Assembly: GCA_030429145.1 (NCBI GenBank)
Contig: JAUIDC010000001.1
Location: 390,001 to 422,000, forward strand
Length of the DNA stretch: 32,000 bases
Origin: Candidatus Saccharimonadota bacterium
GTDB taxonomy: Bacteria > Patescibacteriota > Gracilibacteria > Absconditabacterales > Absconditicoccaceae
Direction: 5' to 3'
Below the pieces are notes generated by a model that did no database searches, was not told the origin of the DNA, and saw only the letters and a list, made by a program, of their open reading frames with translations. Shown piece after piece: positions 4,210-31,164 of this stretch. A program made the position numbers and the translations under genes. Within the stretch, counting starts at the first letter, position 1; every line of letters starts with the position of its first letter.

Positions 4210-5064
4210 TTAATATTTATCTAAGAAATAATCACTATCAGATGTTAGATCATGTGAAGAAAGTTTTTCTCAACAGACACGACAGTATGTTGCATCATCT
4301 GCATGAGGTCATGTTTTACATTTGTGGCAAATTGCGTCGGCACAGGACTCCTTGTGGATAAGTCTCATAACATCTAAAAAGGTAACTATAGAAATAGATG
4401 ATATGATCGCAAGAAAAATTGGTCCAAAAAGAATGACGACAGATCAAATTATTTTTCCTAGAACAGTTGTTGGATAGACATCTCCATATCAGACTGTAGA
4501 CATAGTTACTAGTGTTCGCCACATACTATTGGGGATATTTGAGAATCAAGGATTTATATGTGACTCTGTTGCATAGATAAGAAAAGATCAAATTAACAAA
4601 CAGATAAGAAAAAATACTCATGCTATCTTGTACTTATATGCATTTTTCTTGAGAGCCTTCCAAAGATTTGTTAAGAATACAAAATATTTTCCAAGTCTAA
4701 ATACTCTAAAAATTCTTGTTGCTCTTAAAACTTTTAGATAATCTACAGCAAAATATCCCTTTAGTCAGAATGCAAGTATGAAAGGAATAGAAGCGAAAAG
4801 GTCAAAAATATTGAATATATTAGTAAAATACTTTTTCTTTCGTCATGAGAGATGTGCACGAATAAGAAAGTCTATCAGAAAAAGAAAAGATATAATAAGC
4901 TCTAGAGCAAGAATTGCATGATAAAAATCTGTTTCAACTTTTCTTACAGAAGCTACTATCATCAAGACAATAGCCAAAAGAGTAACACTCCACATTACTG
5001 CATTTGCGAGATCACCTCGTTTTTTATCTGTAGGATAATCGATATAGATTTTCTTTTTGTTCAT
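4210..5064 (-). CDS. voltage-gated-type 6TM potassium channel with C-terminal zinc-ribbon tail, 284 aa
   Basis: 855 nt, in frame throughout. The S4 segment is LKVLRATRIFRVFRLGK, with Arg every third residue and all four encoded by AGA. Pore helix plus filter reads IPNSMW-[CGA]-TLVTMSTV-[UGA]-YGDVYP, matching canonical WWxxVTxTTVGYGD. The C-terminus is CHKCKTGPHADDATYCRVCGEKL (CxxC..CxxC). Confidence 0.85.
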
Positions 5065-5132
5065 CTTTTATATAGGAGATAATTACCTACCATAAGTATA
5101 ATCTGTTACTCCTAAAAAGACAAAAAGTAAGA

Positions 5133-5160
5133 TTGACTTGTTTATCAAACATTATAAAAT
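5133..5160 (+). promoter_or_regulatory. sigma70-like promoter candidate for the AbrB-MFP-RND operon
   Basis: TTGACT (5133-5138), a 16-nt spacer, then TAAAAT (5155-5160), about 70 nt upstream of the ATG at 5233. Confidence 0.4.
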
Positions 5161-5198
5161 AAATATCTTGTATTAAACTACGAAATTCTTACCATTCC

Positions 5199-5224
5199 CA
5201 CAAGTTATACTTTTTATACTTGTG
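5199..5224. promoter_or_regulatory. imperfect palindrome (candidate operator) between promoter and AbrB-like gene
   Basis: CACAAGT(T)ATA-ctttt-TATACTTGTG: perfect 7-bp outer arms, extendable to 10 bp with one bulge. It ends 8 nt before the ATG of the AbrB-family gene. Confidence 0.4.
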
Positions 5225-5232
5225 AATAAAAA

Positions 5233-5448
5233 ATGAAAACACCACACGATATAAAAATGTGCGGCAATGTGACCGTATGACCCAAATGACAGGTGGTTAT
5301 ACCAAAAGATGTAAGAGAGCTTCTAGATATTAAACCAGGTGATAGCCTGGTTGTTATTGTGAAAGCAGATAGAGCGGTTGGTATGATCAAGTCAGAAAAT
5401 ATTCCTGAGATGATAGAATATATCGAGTCGGAAATGGGTTCATGTTAA
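5233..5448 (+). CDS. AbrB/MazE/SpoVT-family DNA-binding protein, 71 aa
   Basis: MKTPHDIKMCGNVTV-G-PK-G-QVVIPKDVRELLDIKPGDSLVVIV: the classic looped-hinge-helix motif (tvg.rGQvvIPkevR..lgIkpGD), with both bracketed Gly encoded by TGA. 216 nt, ends TAA. Confidence 0.75.
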
Positions 5449-5470
5449 ATTTATACTTTGATATTATTTG

Positions 5471-7285: not shown

Positions 7286-7307
7286 TTTATTTATAGAGAT
7301 CTAGTGA

Positions 7308-10576: not shown

Positions 10577-10609
10577 AAAGGTCCTCATGGCGAGGGCCTT
10601 TATTTTTTT
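10577..10609. terminator. bidirectional terminator between convergent RND pump and photolyase genes
   Basis: AAAGGTCCTC-atggc-GAGGGCCTTT (one G.U pair) followed by TATTTTTTT on the plus strand and preceded by an A-run. It overlaps the photolyase stop codon (10600-10602). Confidence 0.65.
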
Positions 10610-11925
10610 GCATAGATCTCTTTTGCTTTTTTGCTTCGTTCGTAGTGATCAACAATCGGCTTGGCATATTTGAGATCGTGTTCTAGTGGATTATGAATTT
10701 CCTTGGGAGAGAAATCTTTGAGCTCAGGTAGTCGTTTTTTTATGTATATACAATCGGGATCGAACCTTTCTGATTGGCGGATAGGCGAGAAGATCCTGAG
10801 AGGCTTTGGGTCGGCGCCGACGCTTGCAGTTCGTTGTCGATTGCCAATATTTACGTTTTCATCGTAATCGAGTAGGTAATTGGCAAAGTGTTTCTCCCCT
10901 CGACGTCGGTCGATAAGCAGGTCTTTAGTAAGAAATGAAGCAACGATCATACGAACACGGTTGTGCATCCAATTTTCTTCCTTCAGCTGTCTCATCCCTG
11001 CGTCAACGATCGGATATCCGGTTTTGCCATCTTGTCGTGCCTTAAAATATTTTTCGTTATTATCCCAAGCCAGTTTCCTGCGCTTTTCGAGGAACTCAAC
11101 GAGGCGTGTTTCTGGAAAATGAAACATGATATGATGTCGAAATTCACGTCGAGCTAATTCAGAGATAAATGTCTGTGCATTTTCCTTGAGAGCTTTTTGG
11201 TAGACGTCTCTGATACTTATCAGTCCAAACCTAATATACGGAGAGAGCTTTGACGATCAGTCTATGGCAGGAAAGTTTCTTGTTTCATCGTATCAAGAGA
11301 AATCGAAATGTTGTAGTCTTTCTTGGGGGAAGGAGAGAGACCAGTGGATGTTCTCCTGGTATGAAAGTTTTGAAAATATCCCTTTTTTGTTTGGAAGAGA
11401 AATTTTTGGTGACTCTATTTTTTGAGGAGCACGGTGAACCTTTGTATATTCTTCGGTGAGGAATTTCTTCCGACGATTGAAAAAAGGAGTGAACACTTTC
11501 ATGGGCTTCACTTTGTCTATGGGAATGAGGAGAAAGTCATGAGAGGCATGACAAGCGATCTTCTTTTTGTCGCAATAGTCTTCTATCTTTTTATCTCTCT
11601 TGATTGATCATGATCCGTAGCTTTGGTTGTAAAAGATCGCGTTAATGTTGTGCTCTTTGATGAGCTTGGGAATGATTTTAGCTGGGTCTCCATATTGGAT
11701 AAGAAGATATGATCACTTTTCTTGAAGCTCTTTTTCGAGGTTGTTGATTGCCTCGATAAGAAATCAGACTCTTTTGTCTTCTTTGGGGAAGTTTTTAAGA
11801 ATGGTTTCGTCGAAAATGAAAATAGGGATAATCTCTTTGGATTGTTTAAGGGCCTCAAGCAATCATTTATTGTCGTGAAGCCTGAGATCTTGGCGGAAGA
11901 TGAAAAGTGAGCGAGGATAAATCAT
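10600..11925 (-). CDS. phr: deoxyribodipyrimidine photolyase (class I CPD photolyase/cryptochrome family), 441 aa
   Basis: 1326 nt with 6 in-frame TGA. N-terminal motif is SLFIFRQDLRLHDN. The FAD domain carries DGSSKLSPYIRFGLIS, TGYPIVDAGMRQL, NWMHNRVRMIVASFL, DPKPLRIFSP and LPEL. All standard-code Arg residues at conserved Trp sites are CGA/CGG codons (see findings). Confidence 0.88.
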
Positions 11926-11927: not shown

Positions 11928-13031
11928 TTATTTTTGTTTAACAAAATGAGGCAAAACATATGTCTTTTGTCATTTTCATTGCCGGTTGTTTTCTACGAAT
12001 GGCTTCATGAAGAGACTTGGAACGAGATAGGTTGTCTTATGCTTTTGTAAAGCCTTTCTGATGAGACGAAGTGAAAATAGTTTGCACCTGATGAGTGTTT
12101 TTTTCAAAAATCATTGATCCTTGTTTCGCTGGGTGGCGTCTAAACTGCCGGGAATTTTTGCTGTGTCATCTAACAGCGATGGATATGGAAAGAAATATCC
12201 CATGTCATGAAACATCATCAAGAGAGGTGTCGTTTGTGGTATGACAGATAAGGGAAGCCGACCTAGGTTTCTACTCACGCTGTGAGCCCAAATGATATCG
12301 GGCTGAAACTGTCAGATCTTTTTCTTAAGTCTCAGTGCGGCAACGAGATTGAACGCTGTTTTGAAGAGTCACCAAAATGAGTTTTCCCCCTTGCCTCACC
12401 AGACATCAACTGTGTAACCATTTTGTTCTAGAAGCTCTTTTACTTCTCGGATATATGTCTCTATGCCGCCGATTTTTTTGATGAAATCCGATATGATAAG
12501 AATGCGCTTGCCACTTCCGATGATAGAGCGTAACGATTCTAGCCGTTTCTCAGGAGAGTATTGTTCAAGCTCCAGCGAGGTAAGATCATACTCCTTTTTA
12601 TCGTGGAGAACTTCCTGTAAGAGGGCAAATAGCTTTTCTGCATCATTGTCTCAAGCCTGGCTACTAATGTTTAACTCATCTAAAACGAAAGATGCTAGCC
12701 CTCACTTTTTAAATCCAATAACCGGCACTCACTGCCTGAGCGACTCTAATGCGCTCTTTCCAAATGTTTCTATGACGCGAGAGGGCATCAAGCAGTAGTC
12801 CATGGTTGTCAATGCTTGCTGAATAGTTTCTTGTGATGCCCAGCCGTGCAGCCTGACATTTGTGCCAAATTTATCTGTGAGCGTCTCGCACTCTTTTTCA
12901 AGAGCCCCTGTTCCATAGATGTCTATATGCCAATCTATTTCTCACGTTTCATAGAGCTTTGTGAAAACGTCGATAATTAGATCGACTCATTTCTCTTTTT
13001 CTAATCTTCCAAAGTAGATAAATTTTGTCAT
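11928..13031 (-). CDS. GT-B (GT4-like) glycosyltransferase with swapped domain order, 367 aa
   Basis: Single open frame of 1104 nt with 11 in-frame TGA and no TAA/TAG. It has a GGAG Shine-Dalgarno 7 nt upstream of the ATG. Residues 1-165 look like the C-terminal Glycos_transf_1 domain (FIYFGRLEKEKG..., LMPSRVIETFGKSALESLRQGVPVIG). Residues ~170-367 look like the N-terminal GT4 domain (KRILIISDFIKKIGGIETYI..., PDIIWAHS, MMFHDMGY, YLVPS...YVLPHFV). Confidence 0.75.
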
Positions 13032-13032: not shown

Positions 13033-13707
13033 CTATCTCCACATTCAAATAACAAACTCACCCTTTATCACAAGTTCTTTCTTTTCAATCTTCTCTTTCA
13101 ACTCACTCGCTGTTCCCATAACTTTCTCCTCAAACATCTTGCTCAATTCGCGCGCTATAAATACTTTTCATTCATATCCGAGCTCTTCGAGCTCACTCAG
13201 TAGTTTTTCTACTCTATGCACTGACTCATAGAAGAAACAAGGCGTTTCAGTAGATGTTTCAATGAGTTTCTTCAATGTTGTTTGCCTACCTTTTTTTGTC
13301 GGGATAAATCCGAGATATGAAAATGTACTGGTATCGGTATATGCAGAGACTATAGCTGGAATGAGCGCGTTTGCTCATGGTAAAACTTCAAATGAGAGAT
13401 TCTCTTCTCGAGCTATTTTAATGAGATTTTTCCCTGGATCAGAAAGTCATGGAGTGCCTGCTTCGCTAAGAACTACGGCGTCTTCCTCTTTGATGAGGTT
13501 GATATAGTGTGATAGCTTTCACTGATCAGTGAAGCTGGTAAGTGGGAAAAACTGTTTTCCCGTCAAAGATATCTCGTACATATTCATAAGCTTCTTTGCT
13601 GTTGCTGTATCTTCGCAGAAAAAAAGAGAAACCTCTTTGAGTAGTCTCAGTGCACGAAGCGTAATGTCTTCTCTGTTCCCGATAGGGGTGGGGGCGAAAT
13701 AAAGCAT
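13033..13707 (-). CDS. rsmI: 16S rRNA (cytidine1402-2'-O)-methyltransferase RsmI, 224 aa
   Basis: MLYFAPTPIGNREDITLRALRLLKEV..FCEDT, then SEAGTP-G(UGA 13447-13449)-LSDPG and VLP-G(UGA)-ANALIPA. I translated all 675 nt codon by codon and found no TAA/TAG before TAG 13033-13035. Confidence 0.85.
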
Positions 13708-13724
13708 GAACTATTGTTAATCGC

Positions 13725-13958
13725 TTACTTATAAATGTTTCATCTGTAGTCTATATTTATTATTTTGATTGTATTATCATGTGTCGAAAATACAATCCTG
13801 ATTTTTCAGACTCTCACTCTATATGTGCCTTTTTCTTCTTTCATCTTTTGCATATCTAATTTTTCAGTTTGCCCTCATGCAATCAAACTGAGTATTTCGA
13901 GTAGTTTGACTTGTTCTTTCAAGGATAGGCTTAAAAGGAACTTTTGTATCTTATCCAT
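13725..13958 (-). CDS. RelE/ParE-family type II toxin, 77 aa
   Basis: MDKIQKFLLSLSLKEQVKLLEILSLIAGGQ...KGTYRVRV-G-KIRIVFSTHDNTIKIINIDYR-G-NIYK matches the yRiRiGdyRiiy...i..i..RgeiY signature. It has three in-frame TGA (all Gly) and overlaps the antitoxin stop by 8 nt. Confidence 0.7.
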
Positions 13959-14190
13959 CTATAATCTTTTCTAGTTTTTGTTTTAAAACAGCTATATCAA
14001 CGCCTTCTTCTGCGTATATGCCGCGTCCGTTTTGGTCTTCATAGTAAACGACTCCATCCTTTTGTAAAGGTTTGATTAGCAATCCCTCTGGAGTTTCTTC
14101 TGCAACGAAATTATTCGTAGAAAATTTAGATCTTCGAGCCTTTGGAAGAGTTATTTGTCCTGTGTTGAATGATTTGAGAGTGTAGATCAT
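13951..14190 (-). CDS. AbrB/SpoVT-type antitoxin, 79 aa
   Basis: MIYTLKSFNTGQITLPKA[CGA]RSKF...LLIKPL carries a SpoVT-AbrB-like GQITLPK motif. It sits immediately upstream of, and overlaps, the RelE-like gene. I chose ATG 14190 over the track's TTG at 14232. Confidence 0.6.
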   Translation of the reverse strand: MIYTLKSFNTGQITLPKARRSKFSTNNFVAEETPEGLLIKPLQKDGVVYYEDQNGRGIYAEEGVDIAVLKQKLEKIIDG

Positions 14191-14316
14191 TTTTATGATA
14201 TTAATTAAATTAGTTAATTGTATTTTAAACAAGCGTTTTAAGAAAACAAGAGAAGAGTTTGTTTTTAAAAGTAGATTATCTATATATGTTTTATTTGTTT
14301 GTAAGAATAGAAGAAA

Positions 14317-14946
14317 ATGATAGAGCAGATTATAGATTGGCTTCTGTGGCTGGTTCGTGAGATTGGGTATCCAGGAGTGGCACTTTCGATGTTTATCGAG
14401 AGCTTCTTTGCACCAATTCCATCAGAGGCGATTATGCCGCTCGCTGGCTGGCTCGCGGCTGAATGAGCGATGAAAGTGCGAATTCTTGCTCTCGTCGGAT
14501 GAGTTGCTAGTTATCTTGGAACCTTGCCGTTTTACTTTCTTGGATACCGAGGCAACAGACAAAAGATCTATCGCCGGCTCGACAAGTACGGCAAGTGGTT
14601 TTTCATCAAGCCCGACGAGGTAGACACTGCATTTGACTGGTTTCAAAAGTATGGAAAATGATTTGTCTTTTTTGGTCGCCTTGTTCCGATAGTGCGTACC
14701 GTTATCTCGTTTCCTGCAGGATGTGTAAAAATGCCTTTTGTTCCATTTAGTCTTTTGACCTTGCTTGGGTCGACCTTATGGAGTGCGATCCTTGCAACAG
14801 CAGGCTACTATCTTGGAGCAAATTGGTCACAGGTTTGAGAAGCTATAGCAGAGTATGAACATGTTGTGCTTGGAGTTTTGCTAGTTGTGGTTGCTGCATA
14901 TGTTGTTTATCTCTTTCGAAATAGAAAAAAGAAGGCGTCGAAATAA
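14317..14946 (+). CDS. DedA-family (SNARE-associated/VTT domain) membrane protein, 209 aa
   Basis: 630 nt with 5 in-frame TGA. Motifs are FIESFFAPIPSEAIMPLAG, FFGRLVPIVRTVISFPAG and LGSTLWSAILATAGYYLGANW, typical of DedA. Confidence 0.8.
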
Positions 14947-14957
14947 ACCCTTCTTTT

Positions 14958-15422
14958 TTAAAATACAACGAGATAGAATGATTCTCCCTGTCGAACGATA
15001 ATTCCGCCTCCCTTTAAGTTTGGAGCCCATTCATTATAGGGCTCATCAAAGAGAAGGGTCTTTCTTCCTAGGAAGATCTTTTTATTTTCCTCGTACAGAT
15101 GGAATTCTGTTCGCAGAGGTGGTAGCCAGTTTTTCACTCCAGGAGCAAGTAGCCATGGAGAGGAACTGTTGTTCTCGTACCATAGTTTGTCTGTGGCAAG
15201 AACGAAGATTCCTCCATCGGGATTTAGCGTCCACTTAAAGAAAGGCCCCCGATAGATAAGAATTTTCTCGAAAAGGCCGGCAGTCCTGATTGCTTTTTGT
15301 AGGTCTCGGTTTCCGAGATTGGAAGATTTTCCCTTATGAAACAACACAACAGAGCCGCTGACATAGGGGATTATTCCGTCGTCTTCCATCGACTTTGTTT
15401 TGAGCTGCTTCAATAAAGACAT
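14958..15422 (-). CDS. hypothetical protein, 154 aa (no family recognised; atypical codon usage)
   Basis: Intact ATG..TAA ORF with no UGA among 15 Gly codons. Four of its six standard-code Arg codons are CGA/CGG (14991, 15111, 15249, 15306). See findings. Confidence 0.6.
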   Translation of the reverse strand: MSLLKQLKTKSMEDDGIIPYVSGSVVLFHKGKSSNLGNRDLQKAIRTAGLFEKILIYRGPFFKWTLNPDGGIFVLATDKLWYENNSSSPWLLAPGVKNWLPPLRTEFHLYEENKKIFLGRKTLLFDEPYNEWAPNLKGGGIIVRQGESFYLVVF

Positions 15423-15776: not shown

Positions 15777-17402
15777 ATGACAACATTTAAAGATTTTGAC
15801 CTAAGGCCAGGTATACAAAAGGCTATTGATGCTACAGGATATACAGAGCCTACACAAATACAAACAGAAGTATGGAATGCTGCAAAAGAATGAAATAATA
15901 TCGTAGGACAATCACAGACAGGAACAGGAAAAACAACGGCGTTTCTCCTTCCTCTTTTACATAAGGTAGATAATAGAAAGCGTCATCCACAGGTGCTTAT
16001 TATCGCTCCGACAAGAGAGCTCGTGGTGCAGATTCGTGAGGATATCATGAAGCTTACAGAGTTTTTCCCGATGAGATCACTCGTTCTTATGGGAGGAAGA
16101 AGGCGTGAATGGCAAAAAGAAGATCTCGCTCGTGGTCCACAATTTATCGTGGCGACCCCAGGAAGATTGATTGAGTTTATGCAAGAAGGACATCTCAACG
16201 CTGACCAGATAGAGTACTTTGTCATGGATGAGGTTGATCGTATGCTCGATATGGGTTTCATCGATGATGTAGACCGAATTTGGTCGCAGCTTAAAAATCT
16301 TAAGCAGACAATGACTTTCTCAGCAACTATCAACGATGAGATTAAAAAAATTATTACAAAACACTGTAGCGACTACGAATATATACGTATCTCACCAAGT
16401 GTTACTGTCGACGCAATTGACCATACCTATATTGAACTGCCACTTGAGCACAAGTTTTCAACGCTTATGCATCTATTGGAAGGACATAAGAATCAGAAAA
16501 CAATCATTTTTGCACAGACAAAGAGAAATACAGAAACGATTACTAAAGAGATCAATAAGCATGGACATACTGCTCAGTATCTCAATGGTGACCTTGATCA
16601 ACGTCAGCGTACAAGAGCTTTGAAAGCTTTCAAAGAAGGAACATGTAAGATCCTTGTAACGACAGATGTTGCTGCGCGTGGACTTAACATGGATAATGTA
16701 GAGCTTGTTGTAAACTTCGAGGTGCCTCGTGAGCCAGAGAGCTACATTCACCGTATTGGTCGTACAGGTCGTGCTGGTGCAGAAGGAAAGGCACTTATGC
16801 TCGTTTCACCAGATGAGAAGCATCTGATGTACGACATTGAGAAGACACAGAAGATCAAGCTAGAGAAATCAGCTGATCATCAGTCAGTTGCGGATCCTGA
16901 GGGTAAGTTCACTGGTGTTAAGCTGGATGTGCCGATTCCTCCATCGGAAAAGAAAAGAAGGATGGTAGAGAGAAGAGAAAGAGGCGTTGTTTCAGGAAGA
17001 AAATGGGGAAATAGATTTAGTAGAGATGATAATAGATCAGGCGGTAGAGGTGGAAGATCTTCTGGTGGTCAAAGAGGTTGAAGATGAGCAGGTCGCCCAA
17101 GAAGAGATGATGCATGGACTTCAAGAAGTTTTGGTAACTCAGTAGGAGGCTATCAGGTTGATTCGGTTCGTGAGCAAAGATACATCCAAGAGTCTAAATT
17201 TCTCGGGAAGAAAGCTGCTGATAGATCTGGAAGAGAGTTTGATCCACATAAGGGTCGTCCAAGAAGAGAACCAAGACCTGGTGACTCATTCATTGGAAAC
17301 GATCGCCCAAGAAGATCTTCAGGACCGAGAACATCGAGAGGTCCAAGGACTTCAGCCCCAAGAGGAGCTGGTGCGAGATCAACGACAAGAGGAAAGAGAT
17401 AA
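15777..17402 (+). CDS. DEAD-box ATP-dependent RNA helicase with Arg/Gly-rich C-terminal tail, 541 aa
   Basis: Starts at the second ATG (15777), because the first (15773) hits TAA after 5 codons. Motifs: Q-motif region, AKE-G(UGA 15891-15893)-NNIVGQSQTGTGKT, PTREL, TPGRL, DEVD, SAT, ARGLN, HRIGRTGR. Reading through TGA 17079 adds a 107-aa RG/RP-rich tail ending at TAA 17400-17402. Confidence 0.9.
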
Positions 17403-17466: not shown

Positions 17467-17543
17467 TGGAGGCACCAGTGGGATTCGAACCCACGATCGA
17501 AGGCTTTGCAGGCCCCGCCGTTAGACCACTCCGGCATAGTGCC
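17467..17543 (-). tRNA. tRNA-Cys (anticodon GCA), 77 nt with encoded CCA
   Basis: The reverse complement folds as a cloverleaf. Acceptor stem GGCACTA/TGGTGCC, anticodon stem GGGGC/GCCTT, loop CTGCAAA (GCA), T-arm GTGGG-TTCGAAT-CCCAC, discriminator U73 and a 13:22 mismatch. The last two are both typical of tRNA-Cys. Confidence 0.9.
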
Positions 17544-19172: not shown

Positions 19173-19847
19173 CTATTGTGAAGATCTTCTCACAATGACA
19201 ATCGGAGTCATTTCATCATTCTGACCCATTGGATTGTCTAGGAGGACGAGGCGAACTGTTGCTTTGTCGACAGGCATAGACTTTGACATGCCCAAGACTT
19301 CGACATTGATGTTGTTGCCGTCGATAATGGCTGCGGGAACTCAAAATCTGTCTTCTATGTCCTGACAGAACTTGTCAGCATTCGCTGGTCAAATCATGGC
19401 AAACTCGTCAAACGGAGCCATGGCATCTGGGTTGAAGCCGTCTATTTCTGAAATTCTATTGCCAGCTATGCGGTAAAAATCTCCACGTCTGCCAAGTAGT
19501 CTTGTTATTCCTCCGAGGATCATAGCAAAGAAAACTCTCCGTCGCCCTGCTTGCATGATAGCGACCTGCATCTTGCGGGGGTGAGAGTAGCCAATATCTC
19601 ACTTATGTTTCGTAACACCTTTTACTACTAGTTTTGCAAGCCATCCTGGTTGGATAACAGATTCGTGGACGACTCTTCCTTGTGAAATAGTGACAACCTT
19701 TTCTGAAATTGCAATTCGGTCACCTGGTTGCAGGAGCGGGTTCACATACTTTTCGATAAGTGGATCAAACGATTCTTTGATGTGAATCATATGAGTCTTT
19801 ACGCAAATTCTTTCGTAATTTGCTCCGTTAACCTCTTTGAGAGACAT
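19173..19847 (-). CDS. gamma-glutamyl ligase (CofE / F420-0:glutamate ligase-like, PF01996-type) family protein, 224 aa
   Basis: Track ORFs 19599..19847 and 19389..19571 plus a third segment are in one frame, joined by TGA at 19599, 19389 and 19341. The motif PLLQPGDRIAISEKVVTISQGRVV is typical of the family. Ends at TAG 19173-19175. Confidence 0.6.
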
Positions 19848-19874: not shown

Positions 19875-20894
19875 TTATTTTACTTTTCGCTGTTTCTTAT
19901 CTTCTTTCCATTTATATAACTTATACATTATTTTATTGCCAATAATATCATAACTTCCGGTGAGCTCATATTTTACCCCTCACATTGACTCTTTAAAATG
20001 ACTGACAGTAGCCAACTCGTGCTTTGGATAGCCGGTCGGCGCCCCTCCCATCATATCAAAGATTTCATATCATTTTTCTTTTGCTCGCTTCATTACTTCT
20101 CGTTTCAGAAAGTTATTCCCTCAAATATTTCCTGCTTTTCTATCTGTCGCACCATAAAGATAGATAACTGCTTTTTCTTCTTCATCAAAGAGGTAGATGC
20201 TTCCACTGACGACGTCCCCATTGGGTGCTTTTACCAGCATAAGTTTCCCTGTTTTGTTCGAGAGAAGAGAGTGTTTTAAGTCGTCAAATGTTGACTTTGG
20301 TAGTACAAAAAATGCCTTTTTTGCTGCAGTGCCGCGTCGAATCTTATAGAACTCATCCCATTCTTCTGGGGTTGCTTCACAGAAAGAGAGATGATGTCTT
20401 TTTGCTTTTTTGATAGCCTGTCTACAGTTTGATGTGACATCTTTCCAGAGTTCGTCTTCTGTTTTTTTAAGGTCTATCATGATAGTGCTGTTTGGGAGAT
20501 TTTCTTTGAAGCCAACCTCTAGATCGAAGAGCTCTTTCATCTCTTCTTGGGTGATGCGGCGCTTCATCCTGATGGCCTTTAATACACTCTCATTCTTATT
20601 AATTTTGCAAGGAAATCCGTCGAATGGATCGATGATCCCGAGTTGGAAGAGTATCGTGTGTTTGTCGTTAAGATATGTTTTTTTAATATTTTCTATGTCT
20701 TTTTTGAACTGCGCGTGTTGATCTCTGATTTCTATACCAAGAACCTGATATCGTTTGAACTTCCAAGGCCCGACCTTTTTGTCTCTTATCACGCCAAAAT
20801 GTGTTTTGCCAAGTATTTCTATCTCAAAAGTGGGCTTTCTGTAGACGTTTTTTGTCAGGTCGTATCGGAGTGCTGACTGGTAAAAATTATACAT
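19875..20894 (-). CDS. FemAB-family peptidoglycan interpeptide-bridge peptidyltransferase-like protein, 339 aa
   Basis: N-terminus FYQSAL[CGA]YD (family: flQS..W). The C-terminal half, GATDRKAGNI-G-GNNFLK[CGA]EVMK[CGA]AKEK-G-YEIFDMMGG...HFKESM-G-GV, matches lqWe.i.wAk..G...yDf.G...FK..fGg. 1020 nt, ends TAA 19875-19877. Confidence 0.8.
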
Positions 20895-22029: not shown

Positions 22030-22119
22030 GGAGAGATGGCAGAGTGGTTGAATGCGACTGTCTTGAAAACAGTTGTCCCTTTACGGGGACCGTGGGTTCG
22101 AATCCCTCTCTCTCCGCCA
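22030..22119 (+). tRNA. tRNA-Ser (anticodon UGA), 90 nt with long variable arm and encoded CCA
   Basis: Acceptor stem GGAGAGA/TCTCTCC, anticodon stem ACTGT/ACAGT with loop CTTGAAA, long variable arm GTCCC-tttac-GGGAC, T-loop TTCGAAT, discriminator G. There is one U.U mismatch in the T-stem. Confidence 0.85.
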
Positions 22120-23328: not shown

Positions 23329-23355
23329 CTCGGCAAGACAATTGTCGAGTTTTTT
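23329..23355 (+). terminator. rho-independent terminator after the LysM-CHAP gene
   Basis: CTCGGCAA-gacaa-TTGTCGAG (one G.U pair) followed by TTTTTT. Confidence 0.65.
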
Positions 23356-23439
23356 ATGACACGTTTTATCTCTCTTCTCGTTTACTATAGTATGCGTATG
23401 AGGTGAAGAAGATCTTCAAGTAAAGTAAGGATAAAGAAA

Positions 23440-26400
23440 ATGCACTTCCACAATGATATTTTTGGGGGAAGAAAAACTATTGCTAAAAAAATAAAGAAGT
23501 GGCTTAGGCAGGGAGTTGTCTGGAAGACTATTGTTTTCTGACTTCTTTTTGCGTTTCTTATTGGCGCCCTTCGATTTTACGTGGCAGTAGTAAGTGCTAT
23601 GCCTAACTTGAGTAATATCAATCAGACCTTTAAACAAGCAACACTTATCACCGATAGAGATGGAGACACTCTCTACAAGTTGTTTGATGAAAATAGAGAG
23701 TACGTGTCATATGATAGTATCTCTCCTCATATGGTAAACGCTATGATAGCGGCTGAAGATAAGGATTTTTGGACGAATGAGTGAGTAGACTATGGAGGTA
23801 TCCTGAGAGCAATTTGGATTACTTTGAAGACAGGAAGTTTGAGTGGGCCTGGAGGTTCGACCATTACCCAACAGCTCATCAAGCTTTTGCTCTTGTCGAA
23901 CGAGAAAACTATCACGAGAAAAGCAAAGGAGATTATCCTAGCAACGAGAATTGATGACTATCTTCAGGATGAGATCAAGAAGGAGATGCCTGAGCTTTCT
24001 TCGTCTGAGCGTAAGAAAGAAGTAAAGAAGCGTATCGTAGAGATGTACCTTAACTATATTTTCCTTGGTAACAACTCTCACGGTGTGGAGGCAGCTTCAA
24101 AGACATACTTTGGAAAGTCTGCTAAAGAGCTGGATATCCTTGAGTCTGCTATCCTTGCTTCGATGGCACAGCGTCCTTCGACAGTAAACCCATATAGAAA
24201 TGTTGACCAGCTTATGGGTGCATTTACCGTTGTGTCAGACGACGACGAGGCTGTTGATATGACAACTGGTTCTATAAAAGAAAAGGTTGTCGAGAGGATG
24301 GTAAGTAATATCAATGACTCTTCGAGATCGGTAAGTAAGTCTGCCGGTGGATTTATGAGTTATGTTGAAAGAATAGGAGAGTTTAGTATCGAGGTAGAAG
24401 GCGTAGAATATGATGTGGAGTACTCGCCAGGAAGAAAAGATTATGTATTATCTAGAATGTATGAAGATGGGTATATAGATGCACAGCAGGCAAAAGATGC
24501 ATTTATACAGGCCTTAAACTACCAGTTTAAGACGGCTAGGATAGATATCAATGCACCACATTTCGTTTTCTGGATCGTAGAGTGGCTTAAAGAACAATGA
24601 TATACTGAGGAACAACTGACGAAAGGAGGATTGACTATTAAGACGACTCTTGATCTGGATGCACAAGAAATAGCCGAAAAAAGTATTACTGACAATATCG
24701 CTACTATCAATGGTTATGGAGCGAACAATAGTTCTCTTATCTACCTTGATAGTCTCAATGGCGACGTTATTGCCTACGTAGGATCAGCAGATTATAACAA
24801 TGAAGAGATAGCAGGAAAAGTAGACATGGTGTTGCAGTCGAGACAACCAGGGTCGACTATCAAGCCTTTGGTCTATGCGTATGGGTTTATGAAGCTGCCG
24901 TTGGCAATTGATACTCCAATCTATGACATTCCGTTTAAGATAGGAAACGATCAACCGAATAATAATGACGCGGCTTATGAGGGGCTCTTACCTTTGAGGA
25001 AAGCTCTTGGATATTCGAGAAATATCCCTGCGATCAAAATGTATTTTGCTGTGGGTGGACAGGATGAGATTATTCCTTACATGAATAGCATTGGTATCAA
25101 TTCGTTCGATACGAAGAAAGATTATGGTTATCCGCTCGCTATCGGTGCTGGGGAGCTCAGTATGCTCGAGTTGGCAAATGCTTATATGCATTTAAGTTCG
25201 GTCAATGGAGCGCCTGCTAAGATCAATCCGATCCTGGAAGTAACAGGGCCAGATGGAAATATTCTCTATCAAAAATCAGAAGAAGAGGAAAAACTACAAC
25301 AAAAAATCATCCCTGGCGGTGTTGCTTACCTCTTGTGGAAGATACTTACTACCGAAGACAACCTCCCTCCTTCATGGGTTGCAAACTTTAGAGTTGGCGG
25401 GCTTGTTTATGCAAATAAGTCTGGTACAACAGACATGAAAGATCCGAAGAGTGATAGAAAACTGCCGAGAGATGGTTGGCTTGTAGGATATACTCCTTCG
25501 AAAGTTGCTGTCTTTTGGGCGGGAAACACACAGTGAGGACCTATGAATGCGAACGCTTATGGAGGTTGGGTAAACGGAAGAACCTTTAGACAGTTCTTCT
25601 CTCAACTCTTGAGAGCAGACCTTATTCAGTCGGAAAACGTTTCTCCTATAGAGGTGAAAGATGTGGCTATATCAAAAGTCTCATGAAGGTTGGCTACGGA
25701 GAGCACTCCCGAAGAGTTTAGAGTAAGTTCGCTTGCGTATATCAATACTGTGCCTACGGTGGCAGATAATACGATGAGTCCTATCCAGATTGACAATGCT
25801 TGTATGGGTAAGGTGTCAGATGTCACTCCGAGAGAGGATATAATCAATGGGTATGTCCTTAATCCGGTGAGTTTTATGCCGAACAATATGGATCTAGACG
25901 ATATCCGTAACTGGTGGACAGAAAGAGCAAATCCACAGACCACAGGCGAAGTAAAACAGCCTCAGTACAATGGTATCTTTCTGCAGGCTCCAACAGAGGT
26001 CTGTGAGGCGAGAGAGTCTTTAGGAGTCCAAGATAATAGTATCCAGATCACTCTGAGACAGCCAAGAAATCAGGGGAAAATTATGCAGACATTTAGTGTC
26101 TGGTATGACATTAGTGCTCCAGTTACTATCAGCAAGGTAAGGGTGATGCTCGATAATGAGTTCCTTGGTGAGTTCGCATATGCCTCTCCAACGAGTAGAA
26201 TAAATGATATTAGAAAAGTAGATGCTCATCTACCAGTCGATGGGAAGACGCATACACTTACCGTTATAGCAATAGATTCTGCAGGTAGATATAACAAGCA
26301 GTCTGTGGAGGTGCAGTGAGCAGGAAGCGATACTGTTGCGCCTTATCTTCTTACGGATAGCTTTACTGTAAGAAAGAGAGCTGACGGAAACTACGATGTT

Positions 26401-26598
26401 GTGATGCTGTTTGTTGATGATCTTTCAGCGGTGAAAGGTGGAGAGATATTTATGACAGATGGTACAAAGATCCATTCGTTCAATGGTAATGCAACAAGCT
26501 ATCAGATCCAGATACCACAAGTCTTAAACTATAAGGTTGAAGATGCATATGGTAACATAGTAGATGCAAATATTGATCTTACGCAGTATGCACAGTAG
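23440..26598 (+). CDS. class A penicillin-binding protein (bifunctional GT51 transglycosylase / transpeptidase) with ~300-aa C-terminal extension, 1052 aa
   Basis: Five track fragments are in one frame, joined by 6 in-frame TGA. GT51 motifs: AAEDKDFWTNE-G(UGA 23782-23784)-VDYGGILRA, GGSTITQQL, RKAKEIILATRID. Transpeptidase motifs: RQPGSTIKP (SxxK), YSRNIPA (SxN), KSGTT (KTG). An AAGGA Shine-Dalgarno sits 8 nt before ATG 23440. In-frame ATGs at 23356, 23392 and 23398 are possible alternative starts. Confidence 0.88.
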
Positions 26599-26620
26599 TG
26601 TTGTGTAACTGTTGATAATA

Positions 26621-26646
26621 AAAACCTCCCAGCTGGGAGGTTTTTT
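26621..26646. terminator. bidirectional terminator between convergent PBP and dnaX genes
   Basis: AAAACCTCCCAGCTGGGAGGTTTTTT: a perfect palindromic GC-rich hairpin flanked by an A-run and a T-run. Confidence 0.75.
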
Positions 26647-26665
26647 AGTAGACTTGTATTATATT

Positions 26666-28171: not shown

Positions 28172-28321
28172 CCGGTAATGTTCTTTCTAATGTGTAAAAT
28201 ATCCTATAGAGAGCCCTATCATAGGGAAAAATATTTGAAAGAAAAGGATATTTCTCTTTTCCCTCTTGTAAGGCTTTGAGACTTGTATATGATAGTGCTT
28301 CTTTATGTGTCATAGTCTCGT

Positions 28322-29095
28322 ATGAAGCTATTTCTTCGTATTTTACAGCTTGGATTGAGAGTGTTCTTCTTTTTGCTCTCCTTTGGTTTGATAGCAATAG
28401 CCTTGTTTTATCCTTCTTTGATAGGAGACTTTATTGCTTGGTTGGAGAGGGTCGTGGATACTCTTTGATGGATTAATTGGCCTCTTATTTTCCTTCTCGG
28501 ATTTATTGAGTCGGTTCCACTCCTTGGTGCTCCTATTCCAGGACAGACAGCACTGTTCGTCATCGGCTGATTTGTTGCACAGGCGCATCTTTGGGAGATG
28601 ATACTGTTAGTGTCCGCGGCTATGACGCTCGGAGATGTCGTTGGCTATTTGATCGGGAAGCATAAGGGAGATGGATTCATTGATGCTTTTGGCCAGTATT
28701 TTGGCATAGGGAAAACGGAGGTTCGCTATATAGGGAGGGCCTTGGATAAATATGGGCCTTGGGCGATAGTCCTCAGTAAGTGGAATGGATATACACGTGG
28801 TATTATCCCTTTTGTCGCAGGAACGGCGAGGATGAGACGAGGAATATTTATGCTCTTCAATGTTATGTGATCGGTTATCTACGCATCTGTTCTTATCATA
28901 CTGGCAAAACTCTTTGTGTGATCATATGAGTTTGTGTTGCCGTATATTCGCTGGATAGTGCTCGGTCTCTTTGCATTGGTGTGATTATATTTTTGGTTTT
29001 TTAAGAGAGATTCTTTGAAGAGATATATTCGTGATAAGGAAAAAGAACTTGAAGAGGCGGAAGAAATTTTGAAAGAAGTTGAGCATAAATTGTAG
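28322..29095 (+). CDS. DedA-family membrane protein (second paralog) with C-terminal coiled tail, 257 aa
   Basis: I translated it codon by codon from ATG 28322 (TAG three codons upstream) to TAG 29093-29095. Motifs: GFIESVPLLGAPIPGQTALFVIG-G-F, GDVVGYLIGKHKG, GIIPFVAGTARM. Track ORF 28598..28870 is in frame. Confidence 0.75.
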
Positions 29096-29097
29096 CC

Positions 29098-29778
29098 ATG
29101 ATAGTACGTTTAGATAAATATTTAGCTGGACTTGGACTTGTGTCTCGCCGTGATGCAGGTAGGGCTGTGAAGGCATGACATGTTTTTGTCGATGGAGAAT
29201 TGGCAAAGAAAAGTGATGTGAAAATCACAGAATGACAAATAATTTCCTATCTGGGTCAGGATATACAGGTCAGAGAGCATGTATATGTGTTGCTGCATAA
29301 ACCACAATGATATGTTTGCTCCGAATTAGACGAGGGCGGACATTTGTCGTATAAGGTGTTATTGGAGGAGTGTGTCTATGCGCCGATGCTTCATGTGGCT
29401 GGCAGATTGGACCAAGATACAGAGTGATTGGTATTGTGTACCAGCGATGGTCAGTTTACTCATGATATCATCTCTCCGAAAAAGAAACAGGAAAAAGAGT
29501 ACTATGTGTCTCTGAGAGATCCCATCAGTGATGAAGATATCAAAAAGCTCGAACTGTGAGTCGAGCTAGATGATGGATATTTGACTATGCCTGCACAGGT
29601 GCAAAGACTTTCTGAGAAGGACATACAACTGACTATTCACGAATGAAAGTATCATCAGGTGAAACGCATGGTAGAATCATTAGACAATGAGGTCGTTTAT
29701 CTACGTCGCGATAGAATTGGTGATTGGACTTTGGAGGGCCTGGAAAAATGAGAGCGGAGGTATATTGATAAGGAGTAG
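29098..29778 (+). CDS. rsuA: 16S rRNA pseudouridine synthase, RsuA family (S4 domain + catalytic domain), 226 aa
   Basis: MIVRLDKYLAGLGLVSRRDA (S4 domain), GRLDQDTE-G(UGA 29425-29427)-LVL with the catalytic Asp, HE-G-KYHQVKRM, and GE[CGG]RYI at the C-terminus. 681 nt with 7 in-frame TGA. The start lies 2 nt after the DedA stop. Confidence 0.85.
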
Positions 29779-29784
29779 CTCTTT

Positions 29785-30690
29785 CTATTTTCCATAGCTA
29801 CCGAAGCCACACATGGCATGATAAGATGGAGAAACAGTTCCATTTACTGCGCAGGTGTTGATGTGGTTTTGTGCTTCAACTGATGATCAGAAATTTTTTG
29901 GGAGAATAGTGCCGTTGTCGCGATTGACCTTGTAGACGCCGTTAAACTTTCGGATGGCGTATCTTCTGCCGTTGGGAGCTGTGATGATAAGGCGGTTTTG
30001 GTGCTCAAGATAGTTGATGAGCTCGTCAAGTGAGTTGGTGCGTCTCGATAGCACCACTTCTTCGCTTTCGCCTCTACTGAACATATAGTAGATGTCGCTA
30101 TGCCAAAGAGAGTACGCCTTTCCATTGGCTGTATAGTAGCGCTGGATAAACGTTAAACCATCTGTTGATCCTGTGGTTTCTTTCGGAGGAATATAGGGAC
30201 CATCATACTGAGCGTCGTCACTCTTTCCTTCAAGTGCGTTTACGACAGCAAAGTTGAGAAAATAAAGATATGCAAACTTGATTCTGTCGTCAAAAGTGAG
30301 TAGTTCATCCTTATATTTCGCCCACATATCTGGGAGGAGAGCTCTCAATGATGATCTCAGCTTTGAGGTTGAGCTTCTGTCTTGCTCTACTCGAAGAGTA
30401 TACACAAGACCAGTATAGAGAGCTTCGTACTCTCTTTTTTGCGCATCGTTTGGCACTCCAAGATAGTTGATGTTTGTGTCCCACTCTTTCATGTAGGCCT
30501 GAAAATGTGCTTTGCTGTCGATTTCTTCCTTGATAATCATGACAGCTGAAGGGACATTGCAGTTTTTATCTGCAAAATTATATTGCCGTCCGGCACTTGG
30601 AGCGATATTGCAGGCGGCACTGATGCCAAAAATACCAATAATAAAGCTTGCTGCTGAAAATATTCATTTTACGAGATGGCGAGACATCAT
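29785..30690 (-). CDS. predicted lipoprotein of unknown function, 301 aa
   Basis: Extending track ORF 29887..30540 through TGAs gives MMSRHLVK-G-IFSAASFIIGIFGISAAC, a signal peptide with lipobox-like ISAAC. The C-terminus runs through TGA 29887 to TAG 29785-29787. 906 nt, divisible by 3. Confidence 0.6.
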
Positions 30691-30768
30691 CGATCTCTTA
30701 GAGAATAAATACTGGTAATCTACGGTTTTTTACTGGCAATGCAACGCTAACTCACTATACTCTCGTAC

Positions 30769-31164
30769 ATGAAGCAAAAGTCATCAATCCTCGCGCTTGA
30801 CTGGGGTAAGAAATATATAGGAGCCGCATATGTGCTGGAAGGGACCAGCATTGTTTTTCCGATAGGATATATACTCAATGATGCTGCACTGATAGGGGCT
30901 CTTTCGGAGATAGTGTCTCGTTATAGAGTGAGGCATATCGTGATATGATTGCCTCATGATGATCGAGCAAAAGGACAGATAGAGCGCTTTGCAAAGACGC
31001 TCTCTAGGGTGACTGATGAGAAGATGGAGATAGAACTCGTTGATGAGGACTATACAAGTGTGCAGGCGTGAGAAACAACAGGGAACTATAAGAAAAATGT
31101 TGCTGAAGATACTATAGCTGCCATGATCATACTAGAGCGTCGATTGGAGCTCAACAAGAAATAA
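30769..31164 (+). CDS. ruvX: Holliday-junction resolvase-like / pre-16S rRNA nuclease RuvX (YqgF), 131 aa
   Basis: ILALDWGKKYIGAAY (lalD.G.kriGvA), HIVI-G-LPH, VDEDYTSVQA, DTIAAMIILER[CGA]LE. 396 nt with 2 in-frame TGA. Confidence 0.8.

What the first reader, a model, noticed from the sequence alone, without database searches (positions are those of the whole stretch)
4516..31143. CGA and CGG sit on invariant tryptophan positions: apparent Arg to Trp sense-codon reassignment on top of UGA=Gly
Every CGA/CGG that falls on a position I can align by eye to a family-invariant column lands on Trp or an aromatic residue, never on a conserved Arg.
(1) K+ channel pore helix: IPNSMW-[CGA 4516-4518]-TLVTMSTVGYGD, matching the canonical WW...TVGYGD.
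(2) Photolyase, early motifs: FTPFFNR-[CGG 11470-11472] (TPFxxxW), and ELA-[CGA 11149-11151]-REF-[CGA 11137-11139] (ELxWREFY). Also FKA-[CGA 11035-11037]-QDGKTGYPIVDA (aWxxGxTGxPxVDA).
(2, continued) Photolyase, later motifs: LID-[CGA 10906-10908]-R-[CGA 10900-10902]-GE (DWRxGE or DWxWGE). Also GN-[CGA 10837-10839]-Q-[CGA 10831-10833] (GGWQW), and KK-[CGA 10732-10734]-LPEL (WxPEL).
(3) FemAB: QSAL-[CGA 20865-20867] (QSxxW), and FLK-[CGA 20100-20102]-EVMK-[CGA 20085-20087]-AKEKGYEIFDMMG (llqWExixw/yAxxxGxxxyDfxG).
(4) RsuA: GE-[CGG 29755-29757]-RYI (GEW/YRxL).
(5) RuvX: ILER-[CGA 31141-31143]-LE (ILQxY/WL).
Conversely, every invariant Arg I checked uses other codons. These are DEAD-box HRIGRTGR and AARGL (CGT), PTREL and TPGRL (AGA), DnaX GPRGTGKT and ARD (CGT) and SRC (CGC). 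They also include RsuA GRLD (AGA) and QVKRM (CGC), PBP RQPGSTIKP (AGA), Kv S4 (AGA x4), and photolyase FRQDLR (CGC, AGG) and MHNRVRM (CGT x2).
UGG still encodes Trp (for example NWMHNR, DGWLVGYTP). From memory, unchecked here, a published computational screen (Codetta; Shulgina and Eddy 2021) reported CGA/CGG to Trp in a subclade of Absconditabacterales. If that recollection is right, this is an independent re-derivation from raw sequence. It is not covered by any standard translation table and, as far as I know, has not been verified experimentally.
Basis: partly seen in the sequence, partly recalled or inferred. Interest (0 to 1): 0.95.

Follow-up and report, generated by a model that had tools for sequence, protein, structure and literature searches.

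The report
Arginine codons CGA/CGG read as tryptophan
In this uncultivated bacterium the codons CGA and CGG, normally arginine, stand where tryptophan belongs (on top of UGA = glycine); the pattern is real and very strong, but a 2021 computational screen already reported this altered code for Absconditabacteria, so this is a confirmation, not a discovery.

Summary
The 22 curated genes hold 43 CGA, 9 CGG and 78 TGG codons.

- **Photolyase, 24 standard-code homologues:** 6 of 10 CGA/CGG codons lie on columns that are Trp in at least 22 of 24. One more is Trp in 16 of 24, and one is aromatic. None lies on a conserved Arg column. A Codetta-like score gives W +43 bits, the next best residue (Y) -10.6, and R -19.8.
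- **Pfam scores:** they rise by about 55 bits overall when CGA/CGG is translated as W rather than R.
- **Orthologues on five related contigs:** window CGA/CGG aligns with TGG, CGA or CGG, and window TGG aligns with CGA/CGG about as often as with TGG. CGT, CGC, AGA and AGG exchange only among themselves or with Lys codons (Fisher p about 2e-26). TGA exchanges with GGN.

The mechanism could not be checked. The literature proposes Trp-type tRNA(UCG)/tRNA(CCG) and an Arg tRNA(GCG). None of these genes lies in the roughly 50 kb I could read.

The reassignment was published by Shulgina and Eddy (eLife 2021), and I found no experimental proof in the library searched. Novelty: already known.

The parts
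4210..5064 (-). Voltage-gated K+ channel gene. The CGA at 4516-4518 is the second W of the pore-helix WW before TV-G(TGA)-YGD. Two further CGA codons (5017-5019, 4840-4842) lie on variable positions.
   Evidence: Pfam Ion_trans. Kv1.3 and Kv1.2 structures align W to the codon. Ion_trans scores 86.2 bits with R and 91.5 with W. The S4 helix arginines are all AGA.
10600..11925 (-). CPD photolyase gene with 9 CGA, 1 CGG and 3 TGG. The CGA codons at 11149, 11035, 10906, 10837, 10831 and 10732 correspond to E. coli W277, W316, W359, W382, W384 and W418. CGA 10900 lies on a W16/24 column and CGA 11137 on an aromatic column. CGG 11470 and CGA 10636 lie on variable columns.
   Evidence: PDB alignments. 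24-homologue column census. Codetta-like score W +43.0, Y -10.6, R -19.8 bits. FAD_binding_7 scores 204.6 (R), 241.2 (W) and 223.2 (Y) bits. The orthologue in L034 has TGG at 6 of these CGA sites and CGA at all 3 window TGG sites.
11928..13031 (-). Glycosyltransferase gene. CGG at 11982, 12258 and 12543; CGA at 12126 and 12447.
   Evidence: The three CGG codons align with CGA, CGG or TGG in four relatives. The two CGA codons align with Ser/Met and His/Phe codons, so those columns are variable.
13033..13707 (-). RsmI-like methyltransferase gene; CGA at 13408-13410.
   Evidence: Relatives have CGA, TGG, TGG and CGA at this site. Pfam alone slightly prefers R here (76.8 vs 74.9 bits).
15777..17402 (+). 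DEAD-box helicase gene. It has one CGA at 16275-16277. Its Arg/Gly-rich C-terminal tail serves as an internal control.
   Evidence: The 35 Arg codons of the tail are AGA 29, AGG 2, CGC 2, CGT 2, with no CGA or CGG. The 16275 codon is CGA, CGG and CGA in relatives.
19173..19847 (-). F420-ligase-like gene. CGA at 19542 and 19716; CGG at 19539.
   Evidence: Both CGA codons align with TGG or CGG in all relatives. The CGG aligns with Leu codons.
19875..20894 (-). FemAB-family gene with six CGA codons (19887, 20085, 20100, 20337, 20751, 20865).
   Evidence: Every one aligns with TGG, CGA or CGG in the four close relatives. L034 has TGG or CGA at three sites and Leu codons at two; 19887 did not align in L034. 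Acetyltransf_6 scores 38.8 (R) vs 43.7 (W) bits, and FemAB 51.5 vs 54.1.
23329..26598 (+). Class A penicillin-binding protein gene. It has one CGA at 23572-23574. Many of its TGG codons are CGA or CGG in relatives.
   Evidence: 23572 aligns with TGG, CGG and TGG. Ten window TGG sites are CGA or CGG in L033 or L031.
28322..29095 (+). DedA/VTT-domain membrane protein gene; CGA at 28838-28840.
   Evidence: TGG in L033 and AAG in L034. VTT_dom scores 41.0 (R) vs 43.3 (W) bits.
29098..29778 (+). RsuA-type pseudouridine synthase gene; CGG at 29755-29757.
   Evidence: The orthologue in L034 (63% identity) has TGG at this site.
30769..31164 (+). RuvX (YqgF) gene; CGA at 30964-30966 and 31141-31143.
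   Evidence: The Pfam RuvX score is 64.4 (R) vs 67.2 (W) bits. There was no PDB match by sequence and no relative was available.
17467..17543 (-). tRNA-Cys(GCA). It is not part of the mechanism, but it is one of only two tRNA genes in the window.
   Evidence: ARAGORN and Rfam.
22030..22119 (+). tRNA-Ser(UGA). It is not part of the mechanism. No CGN-box or Trp tRNA lies in the window or its flanks.

Best explanation
The organism translates CGA and CGG as tryptophan. CGU, CGC, AGA and AGG remain arginine, UGG remains tryptophan and UGA is glycine. This is the code predicted for Absconditabacterales (candidate division SR1).

Shown here: the meaning of the codons, from conservation and from synonymous-type exchange with TGG.

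Inferred from the literature, not seen here: the machinery. The CGN box would be split because the lineage has no inosine-forming tRNA-Arg(ACG). A tRNA-Arg(GCG) would read only CGU and CGC. Separate tRNA(UCG) and tRNA(CCG) genes would have lost the Arg identity element A20, carry G73, and so be charged by TrpRS. The anticodon CCG differs from the Trp anticodon CCA at one base.

Under AT pressure CGA and CGG were rare, so the switch cost little. Since then TGG to CGG to CGA is a fully synonymous path, and CGA/CGG has spread to 40% of Trp codons in this window and 56% in its relatives.
For: - **Homologue columns.** Photolyase CGA lies on W columns of 24 standard-code homologues. These include residues homologous to E. 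coli W277, W359, W382 and W384. The log-odds are W +43.0 against R -19.8 bits. The controls decode correctly: TGG gives W, CGY and AGR give R, TGA gives G.
- **Pfam bit scores, W minus R.** FAD_binding_7 +36.6, Ion_trans +5.3, Acetyltransf_6 +4.9, DNA_photolyase +3.7, RuvX +2.8, Glyco_transf_4 +2.4, VTT +2.3, ACR_tran +1.2. W also beats Y in total.
- **Codon pairs with orthologues on loci L030-L033.** Window CGA aligns with TGG 16, CGA 15, CGG 11, CGT 1. Window TGG aligns with TGG 42, CGA 29, CGG 8. Window CGT and CGC align with CGT/CGC, AGR or Lys codons. Fisher p = 1.8e-26. The same pattern holds in the more distant L034, including RsuA CGG against TGG.
- **Non-conserved substitutions.** Where a CGA is not conserved, it is replaced mostly by F, L, M, I, H or S codons, rarely by K or R codons.
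- **Arg-rich control.** The 35-Arg tail of the DEAD-box protein has no CGA or CGG.
- **UGA = Gly.** TGA exchanges with GGN.
- **Literature.** The same code was inferred for all 10 Absconditabacterales species. Across the 10 species, tRNA(GCG), (UCG), (CCG) and (CCA) genes were found in most of these incomplete assemblies. tRNA(ACG) was found in none. CGA is never Trp in the sister order BD1-5.
Against: - No tRNA for CGN or Trp codons lies in the roughly 50 kb I could read, so the mechanism rests on the literature.
- Three Pfam families score slightly better with R: ATP_bind_3 -1.4, TP_methylase -1.9, DEAD -0.5 bits. For the TP_methylase (RsmI) site, two relatives have TGG.
- One CGA in a fast-evolving secreted protein (47% identity) aligns with CGT and another with AAA.
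- The CGG sample is small (9 codons). One CGG aligns with Leu codons.
- Window GC (0.40) and CGA usage (47 per 10,000) are slightly above the published ranges (GC 0.26-0.38; CGA below 37 per 10,000 in the text, up to 41 in the source-data table).
- No protein-level data exist, so mixed decoding cannot be excluded.
Confidence: 0.9

Rival explanations
1. CGA and CGG are decoded ambiguously. They give mostly Trp with a fraction of Arg, or the reverse, because Arg-type and Trp-type tRNAs compete or because the tRNA(UCG) is charged by both synthetases.
For: Sequence data cannot measure decoding fidelity. A few CGA/CGG codons align with Arg or Lys codons in weakly conserved proteins (Por 18010 with CGT, 18151 with AAA; DedA 28838 with AAG in L034). 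The published screen itself says that ambiguous translation cannot be excluded.
Against: CGA encodes catalytic and cofactor-contact tryptophans of photolyase (W359, W382, W277 and W384 equivalents). Arg would be harmful at those sites. No CGA/CGG sits on any conserved Arg column. None occurs among the 35 Arg codons of the helicase tail.
Confidence: 0.07
2. The codons are standard Arg codons in DNA, but the mRNA is edited (C to U) so that the ribosome sees a Trp codon. This was the eventual explanation for CGG at Trp positions in plant mitochondria (my own knowledge of that history).
For: The observation has the same form as the plant-mitochondrial case: CGG at conserved Trp positions. No transcript data are available here.
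Against: Most sites are CGA (43 CGA against 9 CGG). C-to-U editing of CGA gives UGA, which is Gly in this organism (TGA exchanges with GGN), not Trp. Two edits per codon would be needed. No such editing system is known in bacteria. The published genomes carry tRNAs with anticodons UCG and CCG and Trp-type features.
Confidence: 0.01
3. CGA and CGG are ordinary Arg codons, and the matches to Trp columns come from chance, misalignment or selective reading by eye.
For: Three Pfam families score marginally better with R. About 10 CGA/CGG codons lie on variable columns.
Against: The margin in photolyase alone is 63 bits for W over R, and about 55 bits net over the Pfam families. Fisher p = 1.8e-26 for exchange with TGG rather than Arg codons. 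Alignments were made with CGA/CGG masked as X, so they were not biased towards W.
Confidence: 0.01

Closest known systems
Absconditabacteria (SR1) code of Shulgina and Eddy 2021 (Codetta screen, eLife 10:e71402): UGA=Gly plus CGA and CGG = Trp
   Same: It has the same three reassigned codons and the same unchanged CGU, CGC, AGA, AGG and UGG. Arg usage is AGA-dominated in both. CGA/CGG makes up 40% of Trp codons here, within the published spread of about 16-61% computed from their table.
   Different: This contig is from a Logan assembly (run ERR3428547) and was not found among the GTDB species representatives by the photolyase scan. GC is 0.40 and CGA is 47 per 10,000 (whole ORFs), slightly above the published ranges. 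The tRNAs were not seen here.
NCBI translation table 25 (candidate division SR1 and Gracilibacteria)
   Same: UGA is read as Gly (TGA exchanges with GGN).
   Different: Table 25 keeps CGA and CGG as Arg. Translating this window with table 25 puts Arg at 52 probable Trp positions, and the public gene calls on this contig even use table 11. In the sister order BD1-5, CGA is inferred as Arg or left undetermined, never Trp.
CGG to Trp in Anaerococcus and in uncultivated Bacilli (RFN20 / Onthovivens)
   Same: An Arg codon of the CGN box is taken over by Trp. A tRNA(CCG) one base away from tRNA-Trp(CCA) is proposed.
   Different: Only CGG changes there. CGA stays Arg because a tRNA(ICG) reads it. 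Here CGA is the main reassigned codon, which requires the absence of the inosine tRNA.
Plant mitochondrial 'CGG = Trp' (later explained by C-to-U RNA editing)
   Same: It shows the same signature in alignments: an Arg codon at conserved Trp positions.
   Different: Editing cannot turn CGA into a Trp codon here. This comparison rests on my own knowledge, not on a tool result.

Membership tests
Absconditabacterales code (UGA=Gly, CGA/CGG=Trp) | UGA is a sense codon for Gly | tested here: met
   There are 109 in-frame TGA codons in the ORFs. Window TGA aligns with TGA 31, GGA 27, GGC 13, GGT 8 and GGG 5 in relatives. The channel filter reads TV-TGA-YGD.
Absconditabacterales code (UGA=Gly, CGA/CGG=Trp) | CGA falls on conserved Trp columns and exchanges with TGG | tested here: met
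Absconditabacterales code (UGA=Gly, CGA/CGG=Trp) | CGG has the same meaning as CGA | tested here: met
   There are 9 CGG codons. Across they align with CGA (10), TGG (3), CGG (1) and Leu codons (4), and never with Arg codons. RsuA 29755 aligns with TGG. The sample is small.
Absconditabacterales code (UGA=Gly, CGA/CGG=Trp) | CGU, CGC, AGA and AGG remain Arg, and UGG remains Trp | tested here: met
   Column scores: CGY gives R +13.4, AGR gives R +28.5, TGG gives W +11.8 bits. Arg motifs were checked.
Absconditabacterales code (UGA=Gly, CGA/CGG=Trp) | tRNA(UCG) and/or tRNA(CCG) with Trp identity (G73, no A20); tRNA-Arg(GCG); no tRNA(ACG) | not testable with these tools
   Only tRNA-Cys, Ser(UGA) and Val(GAC) lie in the 50 kb reachable. 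A metagenome pattern scan returned only ordinary tRNA-Arg genes. The rest of the 127,872-bp contig and the 936,577-bp NCBI contig could not be opened.
Absconditabacterales code (UGA=Gly, CGA/CGG=Trp) | Low genomic GC (0.26-0.38) with rare CGA/CGG and AGA as the main Arg codon | tested here: inconclusive
   AGA is dominant (233 per 10,000). Window GC is about 0.40 and CGA is 47 per 10,000, slightly above the published ranges. One window is not a genome. Relative L034 has GC 0.355.
Order Absconditabacterales (phylogenetic membership) | Placement by marker genes or rRNA | not tested
   There is no rRNA or marker set in the window. The one genome-contig scan (photolyase) found no close relative. 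Membership is inferred only from the code, which in the published table is exclusive to this order.

The most novel reading that the evidence does not exclude
This lineage and its relatives (L030-L034) may be a later stage of the reassignment than most published genomes. CGA/CGG already makes up 40-56% of Trp codons at GC of about 0.36-0.40, and some genes are almost fully converted (photolyase 10 of 13). That would make it a natural system in which a captured sense codon is overtaking the original codon. Alternatively, the lineage may lie outside the Absconditabacterales genomes sampled in 2021. Mixed Trp/Arg decoding is also not excluded.
Probability: 0.12. Interest if true: 0.45.

Novelty: already known. 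Interest (0 to 1): 0.3.

Why it matters
Sense-codon reassignments in bacteria are very rare, and this one has still not been verified experimentally in the library I searched. It is also absent from the standard translation tables.

The practical consequence is immediate. Translating this window with table 25 writes Arg at 52 positions that are almost certainly Trp, including catalytic tryptophans of photolyase. The public gene calls on the source contig use table 11, which breaks the genes at UGA as well.

The window also offers a clean experimental handle. The photolyase could be expressed with native CGA codons and with CGA recoded to TGG. The difference in activity would test the code without culturing the organism.

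Tried and rejected
- **Search for the decoding tRNAs.**
  - ARAGORN and Rfam on the window and on about 9 kb of flank each side found only Cys(GCA), Ser(UGA) and Val(GAC). The flanks came from the source contig through exact-protein look-ups.
  - The relatives' loci carry the same Cys and Ser tRNAs.
  - A pattern for a Trp-like tRNA with anticodon YCG was modelled on a BD1-5 tRNA-Trp sequence found in a supplement. All 120 hits were ordinary tRNA-Arg genes with the GGATAGA D-loop (A20), or organelle-like tRNAs.
  - A homologue search with the secreted Por-tail protein, meant to reach dispersed paralogues, returned only 2 proteins.
  - I ran no further search on walking along the contig, because I put the chance of reaching the right tRNA at only about 15%.
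- **Organism identity.** The photolyase scan of GTDB representatives found 27 homologues from other phyla and none from the same clade. The cluster look-up gave no accession.
- **RuvX.** It has no PDB relative by sequence, so that claim rests on Pfam scores only.
- **Non-coding frames.** A first codon-pair run that included all ORFs also aligned non-coding frames. I discarded it and repeated the run on curated genes only.
- **Possible HGT of the photolyase.** I considered a recent transfer as an explanation for its many CGA codons. I rejected it because the gene is syntenic in the distant relative L034.

Full report
**What is in the window**

The 32-kb window has about 40% GC. It carries roughly 22 genes once TGA is read as a sense codon. 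They include:

- a PilT-like ATPase and TilS;
- a voltage-gated K+ channel;
- an HlyD/AcrB efflux pair;
- a CPD photolyase, a glycosyltransferase and RsmI;
- a DEAD-box helicase and a FemAB-family protein;
- a class A PBP, DnaX and a DedA/VTT protein;
- RsuA and RuvX (Pfam).

TGA occurs 109 times in frame. It stands for Gly in the channel filter TV-G-YGD. Only two tRNA genes are present, Cys(GCA) and Ser(UGA).

The window is part of a 127,872-bp Logan contig (run ERR3428547). Its public gene calls are table-11 fragments.

**Check of the observation**

The curated genes hold 43 CGA, 9 CGG and 78 TGG codons. With TGG alone, Trp would be 0.88% of codons in the ORF set. With CGA and CGG added it is 1.47%.

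**Test 1: columns of standard-code homologues**

A scan of GTDB representatives with the photolyase returned 27 homologues from many phyla and none from the same clade. I aligned 24 of them with the window protein, with CGA/CGG masked as X.

- Four CGA codons lie on columns that are W in 24 of 24.
- Two lie on columns that are W in 22 of 24.
- One lies on a W16/24 column and one on an aromatic column (F20 W2 Y2).
- The CGG at 11470 lies on a variable column (A17 S3 W2). The E. coli and A. nidulans structures have W there.
- The last CGA (10636) lies on a variable C-terminal column (E18 R2 Q2 A2).

By the alignment to E. coli photolyase, the CGA codons correspond to W277, W316, W359, W382, W384 and W418. 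W306 and W338 are TGG. From established knowledge of this enzyme, W382-W359-W306 is the electron-transfer chain to FAD, and W277 and W384 contact the lesion.

All ten columns with R in at least 20 of 24 homologues use CGT, CGC, AGA or AGG.

A Codetta-like log-odds sum over these columns gives, for CGA, W +43.0 bits, Y -10.6 and R -19.8. The controls decode as expected: TGG gives W, CGY and AGR give R, TGA gives G.

In the channel, the CGA at 4516 aligns with the second W of the pore-helix WW in the Kv1.3 alignments shown.

**Test 2: Pfam scores**

I translated CGA/CGG as R, W or Y and compared bit scores. W minus R was:

| Pfam family | W minus R (bits) |
|---|---|
| FAD_binding_7 | +36.6 |
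| Ion_trans | +5.3 |
| Acetyltransf_6 | +4.9 |
| DNA_photolyase | +3.7 |
| RuvX | +2.8 |
| Glyco_transf_4 | +2.4 |
| VTT_dom | +2.3 |
| ACR_tran | +1.2 |
| DEAD | -0.5 |
| ATP_bind_3 | -1.4 |
| TP_methylase | -1.9 |

The net is about +55 bits. W also beats Y in total.

**Test 3: codon exchange in relatives**

This test does not depend on any assumed code. A homologue search with FemAB found relatives, and I fetched their contigs.

- L030 and L031 are probably one organism (FemAB 86% identical to the window's).
- L032 (67%) and L033 (78%) are further relatives.
- L034 is more distant (photolyase 61%, GC 0.355) and keeps the gene order, including the photolyase.

I aligned orthologues with CGA/CGG masked and tabulated codon pairs for curated genes only.

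| Window codon | Aligned codons in L030-L033 |
|---|---|
| CGA | TGG 16, CGA 15, CGG 11, CGT 1, other 6 |
| CGG | CGA 7, TGG 1, CGG 1, Leu codons 4 |
| TGG | TGG 42, CGA 29, CGG 8 |
| CGT, CGC | each other, AGR or Lys codons |
| TGA | TGA 31, GGN 53 |

The contrast between TGG and Arg codons as partners of CGA/CGG, compared with the other Arg codons, gives Fisher p = 1.8e-26. L030 and L031 overlap, so FemAB and its neighbour are counted twice.

L034 shows the same pattern. Six photolyase CGA sites are TGG there, and all three window TGG sites are CGA there. RsuA CGG 29755 is TGG there.

The RsmI site that Pfam slightly preferred as R is TGG in two relatives. Where a CGA is not conserved, its partners are mostly F, L, M, I, H or S codons.

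**Test 4: internal control**

The Arg/Gly-rich tail of the DEAD-box helicase has 35 Arg codons and no CGA or CGG.

**Qualifications**

- About 10 of the roughly 36 CGA/CGG codons with comparative data lie on variable columns, so they say little.
- One CGA in a fast-evolving secreted protein aligns with CGT and one with AAA at 47% identity.
- CGG rests on nine codons.
- RuvX has only the Pfam support.

**Mechanism**

What is shown is the meaning of the codons. The machinery is not visible. No CGN-box or Trp tRNA lies in the window, in about 9 kb of flank each side, or in the relatives' loci.

A metagenome pattern scan for a Trp-like tRNA(YCG) returned only ordinary tRNA-Arg genes.

The most likely mechanism is therefore taken from Shulgina and Eddy 2021:

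- there is no tRNA(ACG) and hence no inosine reading of CGA;
- a tRNA-Arg(GCG) reads CGU and CGC;
- tRNA(UCG) and tRNA(CCG) carry G73 and lack A20, and so are provisionally Trp acceptors.

The path TGG to CGG to CGA is synonymous under this code. That fits the high exchange rate seen.

**Rivals**

- **RNA editing.** This explained the plant-mitochondrial precedent (my own knowledge). It fails here because most sites are CGA, and an edited UGA would be Gly.
- **Plain Arg decoding.** All four tests contradict it.
- **Ambiguous decoding.** It cannot be excluded without peptides. It is hard to reconcile with CGA at catalytic tryptophans and with the absence of CGA/CGG from Arg-conserved sites.

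**Comparison with what is known**

The reassignment was published. Codetta inferred CGA = Trp in all 10 Absconditabacterales species analysed. CGG was inferred as Trp, undetermined, or once Arg. UGA was Gly in all of them.

Their table lists tRNA(GCG), (UCG), (CCG) and (CCA) as present in most of the 10 assemblies. Some lack one or more; GCA_002791215.1, for example, has no UCG or CCG tRNA listed. tRNA(ACG) is absent from all. In the sister order BD1-5, CGA is Arg or undetermined. A 2026 NAR paper restates the reassignment. I found no experimental confirmation in the library searched.

The codon usage here matches the Absconditabacterales rows of that table. Per 10,000 codons it is AGA 233, AGG 54, CGU 78, CGC 47, CGA 47, CGG 12 and UGG 88. 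GC and CGA usage are slightly higher than any row. These counts cover whole ORFs in one window, not Pfam-aligned columns of a whole genome. At aligned sites in the relatives, CGA/CGG makes up 56% of Trp-class codons. That is close to the published 'advanced' case GCA_002791215.1.

**Verdict**

The code change is real in this organism. It is an independent re-derivation of an already published, still unverified, prediction. Novelty: already known. Interest is modest. The main value is practical: correct translation of these genomes, and a convenient photolyase test.

Noticed in passing
window 11928-13031 (-): The glycosyltransferase has its two Pfam halves in reverse order. Glycos_transf_1, usually C-terminal, is at residues 3-148. 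Glyco_transf_4, usually N-terminal, is at residues 187-286. The same order is seen in relative L032; in L034 the orthologue is called as one 372-aa protein, but only the Glycos_transf_1-type families are listed there. It looks like a circularly permuted GT-B enzyme.
   Followed up: partly
window 16950-17402 (+): The DEAD-box helicase ends in an Arg/Gly-rich tail of about 150 residues (RGG-like). Of its 35 Arg codons, 29 are AGA. Such a tail is unusual for a bacterial helicase. It was useful here as a control for Arg codon choice.
   Followed up: partly
whole window; source contig Logan ERR3428547_4287: Public gene calls on this contig use the standard bacterial code, so genes are cut at every TGA. 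AcrB is in four or more pieces and the photolyase is reduced to a 175-aa fragment. An identical 483-aa protein is also recorded from an NCBI source, with a longest contig of 936,577 bp. The tools could not open that contig.
   Followed up: partly
window 10600-11925 (-); loci L003-L029, L034: The nearest standard-code photolyases (at most 50% identity) are scattered over Thermodesulfovibrio, Dependentiae, Chlamydiae, Thaumarchaeota and Peregrinibacteria. Even so, the gene sits in the same neighbourhood in a distant relative. In the window, 10 of its 13 Trp-class codons are CGA/CGG, well above the window average of 40%.
   Followed up: partly
window 13710-14958: This stretch is about 1.2 kb. It holds one small AbrB/MazE-like ORF at its low-coordinate end (about 13951-14190, minus strand, motif ITLPKA-CGA-R). 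The rest has no convincing gene and no Rfam match.
   Followed up: no
window 17467-17543 and 22030-22119; loci L030-L036: The tRNA-Cys(GCA) and tRNA-Ser(UGA) genes keep their places next to FemAB and the LysM/CHAP gene in all relatives, down to 35% FemAB identity. Gene order in this region is unusually stable.
   Followed up: no
window 4210-4400 (-), C-terminus of the K+ channel: The channel ends in a Cys-rich tail (CADAICHKCKTG...YCRVCGEK) that looks like a small zinc-ribbon motif. This is unusual for a bacterial Kv-type channel.
   Followed up: no
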